64,000 nucleotides of DNA. Origin: Escherichia coli (GTDB taxonomy: Bacteria; Pseudomonadota; Gammaproteobacteria; Enterobacterales; Enterobacteriaceae). Positions 238-3,200 of this stretch are shown here, one piece after another. Position numbers: made by a program. The stretch lies in the NCBI RefSeq assembly GCF_044324875.1, contig NZ_CP172185.1; one strand, given 5' to 3'. Positions within the stretch are counted from its first letter, which is position 1. Each line of letters begins with the position of its first letter.

Positions 238-3200
238 GCAAACACATCAATGATGAACGCCACATAGACGACCCCCTCCCATGTGCTGACGTAAGTAAAA
301 TCAGCCACCCACAACTGGTCAGGACGTTCTGCCACAAACTGACGGTTTACGCGGTCGCCTGCGGCAACGGCTTTCCGGCTGACGGTAGTGCGGACCTTTT
401 TACCCCGGAGAACACCGGCAAGTCCCATAACCGCCATGAGGCGCGCCACTGTACATCTGGCTACCCTGATTCCTTCCCGTAACAACTGACGCCAGACTTT
501 ACGCACACCGTATACCTGATGATTCCCATCGTATACGCGCAGTATCTCTTTCTTCAGCCAGTCATCGCGCTGCGCACGGGCACTGCGTTTATAAGGATGA
601 TGTCGCTGTTGCTGACAGTGGTAATACGTTGACGGGGCAATATGTAGTTCACTGCATACCGGTCCGACCCCGTACAGCTTACGCAGCTTATCCAGCAGTG
701 GCATCACTTTTTCCAGAGGCGGTCGAACTCCGCCTTCGCAAAATAAGCGGAAGCCTGGCGAAGGATATCGTTACTGCGGCGCAGTTCACGATTTTCACGT
801 TCCAGCTCTTTCAGACGCTGACGTTCAGCGGTGGTGAGCCCGCCATCACCGCCTCCGGTATCCCGCTCATGCTGGCGTACCCAGACACGCAGAGTCTCCG
901 GTGTACAGCCAATCTTTGGGGCAATGGAACAAATTGCCGCCCACTGTGAGTCATATTCGCCCTGACTTTCCAGAACCATACGAATCGCCCTCTGACGGAC
1001 TTCGGGGGAAAAACGAGTATTTTTAGTCATTCTGTTTACCTCTTTCTCAGGGAGTTTAGTCTCCAGGATTCCCGGGGCGGTTCACGGGAGCCAGGACCTT
1101 AAAATAACTACTTACAGGCTGTTGTATTCCAGCTGGTAATACGATTTCTGCACTGTCAACAAACGGAATGCCGTCTTTAAAGTCTGCCCTGTCATTAGCC
1201 TCATTGAGAATGAAATCGACTAGAACAGGCTCTTCGTTCACCAGTCCTTGATGGTTAAGAAATTTGACGTAAAGTTTAAGTGTATTGCTGACGGGATAAA
1301 TTTTTCCAAGAGCATTGGTAACAACATGGGCTGCGGTGAGAATCTTTTGCTGCTGACCATTATCGAAACCAAACGCAGTTGCTTCGAGATGGCTACTAAA
1401 ATGAGGATCATTGCTTACATAGATTTTACAAACGTAGTTTTCAAACATTATTTCCTCCTTTTGCCGGTACCTAATCAGTTACACGGCTGCATGTTATAAA
1501 CAACTAAACTCGCTTCCTGATATTTGAGTTTGTATGTTTTGCCAGGCACCAGCTCACCTCTGAAACACGGTTAGTCTCCTCCATGACATGGTTATGCGAT
1601 GGTCAGAAACTGTTATCGACGAAAGGCTGGAATTCCTTTAATGGCATTATCCATTTCAAGTCGTATGTCCTGAACGGGAGCGTATATTTTTATGATTCCA
1701 GATCTTAACCCTGAAACATTCCCCGTATCAAAACTGACCCGTTACAGATAAGTCACCACCGGTGCTGTCGATTAATTTAGTGAATTGCATGTCCTCATCC
1801 CATAAAGGGTAGGGCCTACCCCCGGCATCGAGCAAACCTGACCACCCTGCCCTTATTAAGACCCCACATGCGGCAATGGTGCCCTGTCCACGCCGCCCGC
1901 GAACTTTGAGGAAATGGGGAGAAAATAAAAAGAAAACAAAAAGTTATCGGCTGAAGTACCGGCGCAGATAGGGAATCAGGCGAAGCCTGACAGCACGTTA
2001 GGGCCTGGCAGGGGGCTTGAGGGATGAGGACATGCAATTGTGGTAACCTTCCCGCCACGGGGTCGGTTAATTCGTTATTTAGTGTCATATTAAAGTTATG
2101 TCACTAATCACAGAGTTATGTCACTAATCGCGTTTATCATAATAAAGTTATGTCACTATCCTGACTAAAGTTCTGATTTAAAAACACTTTTATAGGCATC
2201 TTCATTTTTTTGTTACCTGTGCAAACAGGTCAAATTCGTATCCTGCTGCTACAATGCCAACGGCCGCGTTACCAGTTCGCCGGGTAGCATGGCCAGCAAA
2301 GCCAGGCATCGAGCACCCGGGTTTCACTGACGGCCGCTGCATAGACGCCGGTATCCGGGAAGAAATAAACCGGGGTGGCGTTGTTCAGCTGGTCGCCTTC
2401 ATCGGCCAGAGCGCCGATCACCTCATGAGGCTTAAGCAGCATATCCGTTAAATATTCATCCGGGTGGATGGCATTCAGCGATATGGCCATCTCCAGAAAT
2501 TCATCCAGGATATGGCGGGTACGATACCCCCGGAAAACCTCGTATGAAGGCGTGACGCATTCACCATCCAGGGAACAGGCATCGTAACCGGCCAGCTGCT
2601 CTTCGGTGAGTCCGGAGGCATGCTTTGCCACAAGATTCGTAAATTGCTCTTTATCGTCCATCACAATCCTTACGCTGTAGGGGCCTGTTTGTGTTATCAC
2701 TGCTTCCGGTTTTTACTTCGCACAACCCGGCAGGTATCCGGTCGCCCGGGCGTCCTTTGCGGTCTTGTTCGCCCTTCGCCTGAATTACGTCAAATCCCTT
2801 TCACTACCCGGCCGCAGGGTGACACCTCCCCTTTTCTCCGGAAGCGAAAGAGGAAGAACAGTTTAACAGCCCGGATCCTCAATAATTTTCGCGTAACGGA
2901 CTAAATAACCGGTTTATGCAGCTTCTGATAACCACAGACCGCGATAGAATAAAACGTCTGGTGAGGAACCGGAGTGTTATGTAAGCGGGGGGTTTAACTG
3001 GGTATCTGTGTAGTCCTATTTAGCCAGATATCCCGAATAAAAACCTCAACGATTAGGTAAACGAAATGGATGGATTCTGGTCGATGTTCTGTTTGTTTGT
3101 CGTGGTAGTTTCACTGTATAAAGCCCTTTCTGTAGCAGCAGCACGAGCAGACGCAGCAAAATTAAATATGCTTCTCAGAATGAGAAAGTTTAAAAAGTAG

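What the first reader, a model, noticed from the sequence alone, without database searches (positions are those of the whole stretch)
1783..2039. 257-bp element with perfect 19-bp terminal inverted repeats and GTG/GTG flanks in an ORF-free stretch
AATTGCATGTCCTCATCCC (1783-1801) and its exact reverse complement (2021-2039) flank about 219 bp with no credible ORF, and GTG lies directly outside both ends. This is the architecture of a miniature inverted-repeat transposable element with a 3-bp target duplication, or of a stem-closed structured RNA. I do not recognise it as ERIC, REP or an IS end. It sits in an 820-bp non-coding gap between two minus-strand genes.
Basis: seen in the sequence. Interest (0 to 1): 0.55.

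Follow-up and report, generated by a model that had tools for sequence, protein, structure and literature searches.

The report
Conserved IncHI plasmid inverted-repeat element
The 257-bp stretch closed by two perfectly matching inverted repeats is real, but it is not a jumping element: it is a single-copy, strongly conserved, unannotated piece of the backbone of IncHI drug-resistance plasmids (here sitting in a chromosomal island), and its function is still unknown.

Summary
In detail: perfect 19-bp arms lie at 1783-1801 and 2021-2039, with about 1e-4 such pairs expected by chance. The MITE reading fails. The element occurs once per replicon in about 1,450 IncHI1/IncHI2-type plasmids and a few E. 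coli chromosomal islands, always about 66 bp past the stop codon of the same acidic 130-aa gene. The arm sequence is found nowhere else in 72,556 plasmids, and 100,044 species genomes give only chance-level hits. No orientation flips were seen (0 of 1,403), and there is no reverse transcriptase and no Rfam match. Across 20 distinct variants, the 16-17-bp arm cores are invariant (2 of 34 columns vary, both at the arm edges), while 71 of 143 and 63 of 76 interior columns vary. Length stays at 255-257 bp in 19 of 20 variants. The interior folds no better than shuffled sequence and shows no convincing covariation. My best reading (about 0.4) is a cis-acting DNA site. In that reading, the two arms are inverted copies of one protein recognition sequence held at a fixed distance. 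One specific candidate, untested, is a fork-barrier pair for the plasmid's own Tus homologue. Rival readings are a stem-closed part of the upstream gene's transcript, or a fold in the transferred single strand. The function is not established.

The parts
1783..1801 (.). Left arm (arm-L). The invariant core is 1785-1800, TTGCATGTCCTCATCC.
   Evidence: Perfect 19-nt inverted repeat. The core is invariant in 20 distinct variants; only position 1801 varies, C in 16 and A in 4.
1802..1877 (.). Variable interior (76 bp): the sequence is free to change but the length is kept.
   Evidence: 63 of 76 columns vary. Identity to the window falls to 38-64% in other lineages (38%; 55% when realigned), yet total element length stays at 255-257 bp in 19 of 20 variants.
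1878..2020 (.). Conserved interior (143 bp).
   Evidence: 71 of 143 columns vary. In the Pantoea-type lineage this part is 83% identical, while the adjacent gene is 72% and the spacer 64%.
1920..1943 (+). A-rich run AGAAAATAAAAAGAAAACAAAAAG, near the centre of the element.
   Evidence: Contains the invariant run AAAGAAAACAA at element positions 147-157.
1976..1990 (.). Short palindrome or hairpin TCAGGC-GAA-GCCTGA. On the + strand it contains d(GCGAAGC).
   Evidence: Both 6-nt halves are invariant in all variants. The only change is the middle loop base, GAA to GGA in L169.
2021..2039 (.). Right arm (arm-R). The invariant run is 2020-2036, AGGGATGAGGACATGCA.
   Evidence: The only variable column is position 2037, A in 19 and G in 1.
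2040..2075 (.). First part of the conserved 66-bp spacer between the element and the stop codon of the linked gene. The rest of the spacer is 2233-2268.
   Evidence: The spacer is continuous and 91-95% identical in most lineages (64-77% in two), and the window copy is split by the 157-bp insert.
2269..2661 (-). The linked 130-aa gene of unknown function. The mechanical ORF call extends it to 2700, giving 143 aa.
   Evidence: The gene is present in 1,451 plasmids and the element in 1,452. The protein is acidic, pI 4.26. It has no match in Pfam, NCBIfam, PHROGs or PADLOC. The structure model is confident (pLDDT 90.5) but has no characterised structural relative. Distant homologues sit next to ArdC, a TraI_2 relaxase and an integrase.

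Best explanation
The element is a cis-acting DNA site of the IncHI plasmid backbone. It is not mobile and it is not an RNA gene. Its two arms are inverted copies of one 16-17-bp sequence that is read base by base by a DNA-binding protein. The roughly 221 bp between the arms act mainly as a fixed-length spacer that also carries further conserved features: a central A-rich run and a 15-bp palindrome. The likely result is a defined nucleoprotein complex, either looped or a pair of opposed barriers. Shown here: the element is single-copy, sits at a fixed position, has invariant arms, keeps its length, and has an interior without significant structure. Inferred: that a protein binds the arms, and what the complex does. 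The most specific candidate is a pair of opposed replication-fork barriers for the plasmid-encoded Tus homologue. The copy in this window lies in a chromosomal tellurite-resistance island with no tus gene and is probably a passenger.
For: Copy number and position: one copy per record in 286 E. coli records and 1,452 plasmids. One copy in a complete 218-kb IncHI1 plasmid by profile search. The arm sequence occurs only as this pair, 2,827 places in 1,454 plasmids. Arms: 2 of 34 columns vary, against 71 of 143 in the conserved interior (Fisher p = 1e-6), and there is not one wobble or compensatory change. That is what base-specific recognition of both copies predicts and is more than a helix needs. 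The arms are islands of identity: DNA just outside arm-L and the first 76 bp inside it diverge to 38-64% identity. Length is held at 255-257 bp in 19 of 20 variants despite that divergence. The interior folds no better than shuffled sequence, with z = -0.45, -0.30 and -1.71. The conserved half is better conserved than the adjacent coding gene in one lineage. For the Tus candidate: IncHI plasmids encode a Tus homologue that is only remotely like E. coli Tus, and there is no canonical Ter site in 150 kb of pHCM1. The element lies 9.6 kb past tus in the same gene block, 70-84 kb from the two RepHI1 origins, where the monotonic positive GC skew that starts at RepHI1A stops rising. From my own knowledge, paired inverted terminator sites are the classic layout of plasmid R6K and of the B. 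subtilis terminus.
Against: No binding protein has been identified. The linked 130-aa protein is strongly acidic (pI 4.26), so it is an unlikely DNA binder. No sigma-70 promoter or terminator was predicted inside the element that a looped complex could control. Against Tus specifically: IncHI1 and IncHI2 Tus are only about 60% identical while the arms are 100% identical. A syntenic Klebsiella plasmid with a distant Tus has no comparable inverted pair within 20 kb of tus. A fork trap needs neither a conserved interior nor a fixed spacing. Backbone skew and gene orientation actually flip about 5 kb beyond the element. By genus counts, some plasmids appear to carry the element without tus. The resemblance to TerB (G.ATGT..T.A, 8 of 19 positions) is within chance. 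Perfect complementarity of the arms is equally what a nucleic-acid stem would show.
Confidence: 0.4

Rival explanations
1. RNA-level element. Transcription of the 130-aa gene reads through into the element because no terminator intervenes. The two arms then pair into a 17-19-bp duplex that closes a loop of about 220 nt. This would make an RNase III cleavage or insulation site between the conserved gene and the variable downstream cassettes, or would release a non-coding RNA.
For: The element is always about 66 bp downstream of the same gene, on the same strand as a long co-oriented gene block. No terminator-like site lies between the gene and the element. A distant homologue of the gene that lacks the element has an ordinary hairpin-plus-T-run terminator instead. 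The full element folds far better than shuffles, z about -5.
Against: All of the folding signal comes from the arms, and the interior alone gives z = -0.3 to -1.7. RNAalifold covariation terms are positive on both strands, which counts against the fold. The best candidate internal helix has only 2 covarying pairs, reached by 11 of 500 shuffles, and is partly broken in L169. The arms never show G-U wobble or compensatory changes across 20 variants. There is no Rfam match at E <= 10 beyond noise. The variable loop keeps its length, which is unusual for an RNA loop.
Confidence: 0.17
2. Single-stranded DNA element that acts on the transferred strand during conjugation. The arms close a fold that stays free of SSB and serves as a priming signal (ssi) or a single-strand promoter for complementary-strand synthesis or early gene expression.
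For: The element sits in a conjugative plasmid, inside a roughly 90-kb block of co-oriented genes. The linked gene family occurs in establishment-type neighbourhoods with ArdC, a relaxase and an integrase. The + strand carries an invariant d(GCGAAGC)-type mini-hairpin, and its only variant (GGA) keeps the G-N-A loop. That this motif is exceptionally stable in DNA is from my own knowledge. The candidate helix P2 contains G-T pairs that fit only the + strand.
Against: oriT lies about 88 kb away in pHCM1, between the Tra1 genes and mobI/MobH, so this is not the immediate leading region. Which strand is transferred is only my inference. The DNA folding energy of -53 to -55 kcal/mol is well short of the < -75 kcal/mol used to find ssDNA promoters (PMC12672017). 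There are no -35/-10 boxes in the stem and no long imperfect hairpin, since the interior z is -0.45. There is only one copy per 200-300-kb plasmid.
Confidence: 0.15
3. Immobilised relic of an ancient MITE or transposon insertion that has no present function.
For: It has the architecture of terminal inverted repeats around a short non-coding body. Identical flanking trinucleotides occur in two lineages, GTG/GTG in the window and R478 and GTA/GTA in L168. The chance of at least 2 of 6 matching is 0.0035 if the lineages were independent.
Against: There is no second copy anywhere, no autonomous element with these ends, and no empty site. Four other lineages have non-matching flanks. A functionless relic would not keep 32 of 34 arm positions invariant while its interior and flanks diverge to 38-64% identity, and it would not hold its length.
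Confidence: 0.08
4. Invertible promoter switch (inverton) flipped by a site-specific recombinase.
For: A segment of about 250 bp bounded by 17-19-bp inverted repeats is the typical size and shape. IncHI1-type plasmids encode a tyrosine recombinase 4-8 kb away.
Against: A query with the element flipped relative to its conserved right flank found 0 of 1,403 plasmids in that orientation. No promoter was predicted inside. No recombinase lies within 15 kb in R478.
Confidence: 0.02

Closest known systems
Paired, oppositely oriented replication terminator (Ter) sites, as in plasmid R6K and the B. subtilis IRR (TerI/TerII) next to rtp
   Same: Two inverted copies of a sequence of about 20 bp lie close together on a replicon that encodes its own terminator protein. 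The site is a few kb from that gene and far from the origins.
   Different: The arms do not match the Ter consensus, since the GTTGTAAC core is absent. The interior is partly conserved and its length is fixed. Binding and fork arrest are untested.
MITEs of enterobacteria and other bacteria (ERIC/IRU, Correia/NEMIS, RUP)
   Same: Short (100-300 bp), non-coding and bounded by terminal inverted repeats. A possible 3-bp flanking repeat occurs in some lineages.
   Different: It is single-copy, always at one locus, has no autonomous partner and no empty sites, and its arms are under purifying selection.
Frpo/ssi single-strand promoters and priming signals of F, ColIb-P9 and pESBL leading regions
   Same: A non-coding element of about 250-330 nt containing inverted repeats, between co-oriented genes of a conjugative plasmid and next to a gene family seen with anti-restriction genes (PMC11541004, PMC12672017).
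   Different: There is no long imperfect hairpin, there are no -35/-10/UP boxes, the folding energy is weaker, and the element is about 88 kb from oriT.
fimS-type invertible switches (invertons)
   Same: The size and the inverted-repeat boundaries.
   Different: The orientation is fixed in 1,403 plasmids and there is no internal promoter.
Retron msr-msd non-coding RNA genes (a1/a2 inverted repeats)
   Same: Inverted repeats enclose about 200 nt of non-coding sequence inside a defence-gene neighbourhood.
   Different: No reverse transcriptase is nearby. The neighbours are a trypsin-like protease, Bunzi BnzA/BnzB, HipBA and a Gabija-like helicase, and they vary between lineages.

Membership tests
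MITE (miniature inverted-repeat transposable element) | Multiple copies per genome or family, at different loci | tested here: not met
   One place per record in 286 E. coli records and 1,452 plasmids. A profile search of a whole 218-kb plasmid and of the window finds one copy.
MITE | Terminal repeats shared with an autonomous IS or transposon | tested here: not met
   The arm occurs only as this pair in 72,556 plasmids. Hits to the 16-mer in 100,044 species genomes (119) and in viral contigs (12) are at chance level, and none are paired.
MITE | Target-site duplication flanking the element | tested here: inconclusive
   GTG/GTG in the window and R478 and GTA/GTA in L168, but CTT/CTG, TTT/CTG, ATA/GTG and TGA/GTG in four other lineages. 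An ancient duplication cannot be proved or excluded.
MITE | Presence/absence polymorphism (empty sites) among relatives | tested here: not met
   The gene and the element co-occur in 1,451 and 1,452 plasmids. The only homologue without the element is a 41%-identical gene on an unrelated MOBF plasmid. Individual records were not all inspected.
Inverton / invertible promoter | Both orientations found among sequenced copies | tested here: not met
   0 of 1,403 plasmids match the flipped construct over at least 80% of its length.
Retron non-coding RNA | An adjacent reverse transcriptase gene | tested here: not met
   PADLOC, PHROGs and the annotations of the neighbours show no reverse transcriptase.
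Frpo-type single-strand promoter | A long imperfect hairpin that rebuilds -35 and -10 boxes | tested here: not met
   Only the 19-bp terminal stem is significant and the interior gives z = -0.45. No promoter-like hexamers occur in the element.
Frpo-type single-strand promoter | Location in the leading region next to oriT | tested here: not met
   In pHCM1 the element is at 112.9 kb, and oriT is inferred at about 201 kb, in the gap upstream of mobI/MobH.
Tus-Ter replication fork barrier | Match to the Ter consensus (G6, GTTGTAAC core) | tested here: not met
   The arm shares only 8 of 19 positions with TerB and lacks the core. However, the plasmid Tus is only remotely related to E. coli Tus, E = 6e-5, so a different site would be expected.
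Tus-Ter replication fork barrier | Binding by Tus and polar fork arrest | not testable with these tools
   This needs a gel shift with IncHI Tus and 2D gels or marker-frequency analysis.
Tus-Ter replication fork barrier | Position in the terminus region of the replicon | tested here: inconclusive
   Cumulative GC skew in pHCM1 rises from about 40 kb (RepHI1A) and stops rising at about 112 kb. A transposon at 114.5-127 kb blurs the end, and backbone skew and gene orientation flip about 5 kb further on.
Any Rfam RNA family | A covariance-model match | tested here: not met
   Only four noise hits (E = 2.8-4.6, 12-19 bits against gathering scores of 54-80) in 1400-2400.

The most novel reading that the evidence does not exclude
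The two invariant arms are the cognate terminator sites of the plasmid-borne Tus of IncHI plasmids. That would make them an opposed pair forming a minimal fork trap with a recognition sequence unrelated to chromosomal Ter. It would be the first cognate site defined for the 'mobile' Tus proteins from which the enterobacterial chromosomal fork trap is proposed to derive (PMC6549158).
Probability: 0.15. Interest if true: 0.75.

Novelty: new variant of a known kind. Interest (0 to 1): 0.42.

Why it matters
IncHI1 and IncHI2 plasmids (R27, pHCM1, R478 and their many relatives carrying mcr, NDM and other resistance genes) are major vehicles of multidrug resistance in Salmonella, E. coli and Enterobacter. 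A non-coding segment whose 17-bp arms are the most strictly conserved bases of the locus marks a cis-acting function that no annotation or paper I could find describes. The arms are better conserved than the neighbouring protein-coding gene, and the segment is present in essentially every member of the group. If it is a maintenance site (terminus, resolution, topology or looping), it is a candidate target for destabilising these plasmids. If it is the site for plasmid Tus, it opens the question of how fork traps arose. In practical terms, it is a precise backbone marker for IncHI-derived DNA, including chromosomal islands such as the one in this window.

Tried and rejected
- **MITE or other active mobile element:** rejected on copy number, fixed locus, absence of the arm elsewhere and absence of empty sites.
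- **Inverton:** rejected by the flipped-query test.
- **Retron:** no reverse transcriptase nearby.
- **Known RNA family:** none.
- **Structured RNA:** the interior is not structured and there is no covariation.
- **Protein-coding:** the overlapping ORFs are not conserved.
- **Type I toxin or small peptide:** no conserved start or hydrophobic ORF (reading).
- **Sigma-70 promoter or intrinsic terminator inside:** none. A sigma-54-like GG-N10-GC upstream of arm-R is not conserved.
- **Canonical Ter sites:** none in pHCM1.
- **Extra arm-like sites:** a third degenerate copy exists in the Pantoea-type lineage only, and a 3-mismatch site lies at window 31439. Together these are at about the number expected by chance.
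- **The 130-aa protein as the arm-binding factor:** unlikely, as it is acidic (pI 4.26) and has no known fold relatives.
- **An analogous inverted pair near the distant Tus of a Klebsiella plasmid:** none found.
- **Literature:** no hit for the arm sequence, and nothing found on IncHI Ter sites or IncHI small RNAs. The R27 sequence paper is not held.
- **L081 (Buttiauxella) and the other genome-scan hits:** chance matches.
- **A self-correction:** I first read the loss of megablast homology at arm-L as a clean breakpoint. Later comparison showed that the immediate flank is homologous but fast-evolving in several lineages.
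Full report
**Observation**

The window carries AATTGCATGTCCTCATCCC at 1783-1801 and its exact reverse complement at 2021-2039, 219 nt apart. With up to three mismatches the arm is found only at these two places in 64 kb, against 0.01 expected. About 1e-4 such perfect pairs within 500 nt are expected by chance. GTG flanks both ends, and the gap between the two minus-strand ORFs is 820 bp. The ORFs that overlap the element are not conserved in relatives.

**Where else it occurs**

- The 257 bp match 286 E. coli records, 279 of them plasmids, at one place per record.
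- They match 1,452 of 72,556 PLSDB plasmids, again one place each. These are mostly conjugative MOBH/MPF_F plasmids of 200-350 kb typed IncHI2A or IncHI1B, and include R478 at 99.6% identity.
- Identity classes are about 99%, about 96% (a second IncHI2 lineage), about 80% (IncHI1; pHCM1 is one) and a Pantoea/Citrobacter lineage alignable over only two thirds.
- The window copy is 100% identical to four E. coli chromosomes. There it lies in a tellurite-resistance (ter) island beside iol genes and IS elements. It is therefore plasmid-derived DNA in a chromosome.
- A metagenome scan for the arm pair gave 21 more loci. Assembly look-ups through the neighbouring protein gave further variants.
- In total I compared 20 distinct variants from 32 loci.

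**Not a mobile element**

- There is one copy per replicon. This holds for the complete 218-kb pHCM1 and for the 64-kb window when searched with a profile HMM.
- A 31-mer containing the arm hits 1,454 plasmids at 2,827 places. That is the two arms of this element and essentially nothing else.
- The invariant 16-mer hits 119 loci in 100,044 species-representative genomes, which is the chance expectation for about 300 Gb, and none are paired. One enterobacterial hit lies inside a coding gene.
- The element always lies about 66 bp beyond the stop codon of the same 130-aa gene. The gene is present in 1,451 plasmids and the element in 1,452.
- The flanking GTG/GTG is seen only in the R478/window lineage. 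L168 has GTA/GTA, and four other lineages have non-matching trinucleotides.
- An ancient insertion origin therefore cannot be excluded, but nothing indicates mobility now.

**Other look-alikes**

- *Inverton.* A query with the element flipped against its conserved right flank matched 0 of 1,403 plasmids end to end.
- *Retron.* There is no reverse transcriptase. In R478 the left neighbours are a trypsin-like protease and a Bunzi system (BnzB, E = 6.5e-53), and a Gabija-like helicase pair lies to the right. In other lineages HipBA or unrelated small genes take that place.
- *Known RNA.* There is no Rfam match above noise.
- *Frpo-type single-strand promoter.* The whole element folds with z about -5, but the interior alone gives z = -0.45 (DNA), -0.30 and -1.71 (RNA). 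The signal is therefore just the terminal stem. The element contains no promoter-like hexamers and no terminators. The folding energy of -53 to -55 kcal/mol is well short of the < -75 kcal/mol used to mine ssDNA promoters.

**Conservation pattern**

- Across the 20 variants, arm-L and arm-R each have one variable column out of 17, both at an arm edge. The invariant runs are TTGCATGTCCTCATCC and AGGGATGAGGACATGCA.
- By contrast, 71 of 143 columns vary in the half next to arm-R and 63 of 76 in the half next to arm-L. Fisher p is 1e-6 and 5e-15 respectively.
- No arm position shows a wobble or compensatory change.
- DNA just outside arm-L is homologous between some lineages but diverges fast, so arm-L is an island of identity.
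- In the Pantoea-type lineage the conserved half is 83% identical, while the adjacent gene is 72% and the spacer 64%. The element itself is therefore under selection.
- Length is 255-257 bp in 19 of 20 variants, even where the variable part is only 38-64% identical. The exception has a 13-bp deletion.
- Other invariant features are AAAGAAAACAA inside a central A-rich run, and the stem of TCAGGC-GAA-GCCTGA. The only variant of that hairpin changes the middle loop base.

**Structure tests**

RNAalifold on either strand gives positive covariation terms, which count against the fold, and many broken interior pairs. The best candidate long-range helix (+ strand, columns 96-112 with 220-235) has two pairs with changes on both sides, and 11 of 500 shuffles reach its covariation score. 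Its outer part is broken in L169. I treat it as unproven.

**Context**

- pHCM1 can be mapped fully: RepHI1B at 28.5 kb, RepHI1A at 42 kb, Tra2 at 44-77 kb, a toprim gene at 92 kb, tus at 102.3 kb, an integrase at 104.5 kb, hha at 106 kb, the 130-aa gene at 112.4 kb and the element at 112.9 kb. Tra1, with the oriT gap and the MobH relaxase, lies at 192-211 kb.
- Genes from 44 to 131 kb are almost all on one strand.
- GC skew is steadily positive from about 40 kb and stops rising at about 112 kb. A mercury-resistance transposon at 114.5-127 kb obscures the true end, and backbone skew and orientation flip about 5 kb further on.
- The plasmid Tus is only remotely related to E. coli Tus (E = 6e-5). 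There are no canonical Ter sites in 150 kb.
- IncHI1 and IncHI2 Tus are about 60% identical.
- The window has no tus gene.
- A syntenic Klebsiella plasmid with a 23%-identical Tus has a RepB replicon where IncHI has the gene and element, and it has no comparable inverted pair.
- The 130-aa protein is acidic (pI 4.26). It matches no family library. It models confidently (pLDDT 90.5) but has no characterised structural relative.
- Distant homologues of that protein sit beside ArdC, a TraI_2 relaxase and an integrase in an integrative conjugative element. Another lies at the end of a block of small genes, about 3 kb upstream of the oppositely oriented MobF relaxase gene, on another plasmid. This suggests an establishment or anti-defence role for the gene, not DNA binding.

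**Interpretation**

Four results fit two inverted copies of a protein recognition sequence in double-stranded DNA, held at a set distance, better than they fit an RNA or ssDNA fold:

- both arms are invariant with no wobble;
- the length is fixed across a sequence-variable spacer;
- the interior has no significant structure;
- there is no promoter, terminator or RNA-family signal.

I put this at about 0.4. Within it, a fork-barrier pair for the plasmid's Tus is the most concrete candidate, at about 0.15 overall. It is attractive because of the orphan Tus, the classic paired-inverted layout and the position near the end of the skewed arm. It is weakened by four points:

- Tus identity between IncHI1 and IncHI2 is only 60%.
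- A fork trap does not need a conserved interior or a fixed spacing.
- The Klebsiella plasmid comparison was negative.
- Some plasmids appear to carry the element without tus.

The rivals, with rough weights, are:

| Rival reading | Weight |
|---|---|
| Stem-closed intercistronic RNA, possibly an RNase III site | about 0.17 |
| Fold on the transferred single strand, such as a priming signal (the + strand carries the G-N-A mini-hairpin motif) | about 0.15 |
| Functionless relic of an old insertion | about 0.08 |

None of these can be settled without experiments.

**Novelty**

I found no annotation under the element in any record, apart from an occasional 'hypothetical protein'. There is no Rfam family and no paper containing the arm sequence. 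It is an undescribed, strongly constrained non-coding feature of a very well-known plasmid group. It resembles known kinds of cis-acting plasmid sites but matches none that I could test.

Noticed in passing
window 2076-2232: A 157-bp insert between the element and the stop codon of the 130-aa gene. It is flanked by the direct repeat AATTCGT and starts TGTCAT, followed by three AAGTTATGTCACTA-type repeats, which looks like the multi-site end of a Tn7-like or similar transposon. It is absent from all plasmid copies and present only in four E. coli chromosomal islands. In strain TUM9803 an ISEc8 has landed inside it.
   Followed up: partly
window 222-1448: An IS3-family element (orfA 704-1030, orfB from 707 downwards) abuts a 130-aa ORF at 1056-1448. 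That ORF is the N-terminal part of the 218-aa trypsin-like serine protease found intact in R478. The Bunzi genes that follow the protease in R478 are missing from the syntenic position next to it in the window.
   Followed up: partly
L003 (R478) 11916-14665 and 16637-19659: In R478 the element sits between two defence modules: a trypsin-like protease with BnzA-like and BnzB (Bunzi) proteins on one side, and a 328-aa protein with a GajB/UvrD-like helicase on the other. The second IncHI2 lineage has 130 bp in place of the 3.3-kb protease-Bunzi block, which puts HipBA next to the element. This is a cassette-exchange hot spot.
   Followed up: partly
L006 5541-5557 / L138 6070-6086: The Pantoea/Citrobacter-type lineage has a third, degenerate arm copy (TTGCATGaCCTCATCat, 14 of 17 matches) 372 bp beyond arm-L and in the same orientation as arm-L. 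It could be a remnant of a duplication or a chance match, since about 0.75 such hits are expected over all the DNA scanned.
   Followed up: partly
L140 (pHCM1) 45176-45477: A second long-range inverted repeat (24-nt arms, 88% complementary, 254 nt apart) lies in a 1.4-kb intergenic gap, next to where backbone gene orientation and GC skew flip.
   Followed up: no
L169 2280-2659: In one metagenomic copy an IS30-family transposase fragment lies directly next to arm-R and replaces the usual spacer and gene. Together with the 157-bp insert, the ISEc8 insertion and an insertion of about 330 bp in L168, this suggests that the short spacer right of arm-R attracts insertions.
   Followed up: partly
L175 (Klebsiella pKP13-Vir_OXA) 12440-28404: A pNDM-MAR-like Klebsiella plasmid is syntenic with IncHI over DUF3150, VWA, toprim, tus, integrase, hha and a hypothetical gene. 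It carries a RepB replicon at the position where IncHI plasmids have the 130-aa gene and the element.
   Followed up: no
L170 1641-1880: One low-coverage metagenomic variant has a 13-bp deletion (GTTATCGGCTGAA) just after the A-rich run, giving a 244-bp element. It is the only clear length outlier among the 20 variants.
   Followed up: no
L147 358-5287: A distant homologue (38% identity) of the 130-aa protein lies between an RNase T-like exonuclease and a TraI_2 relaxase, preceded by ArdC and followed by an integrase, in what looks like an integrative conjugative element. This is a lead to the function of this uncharacterised acidic protein family.
   Followed up: no
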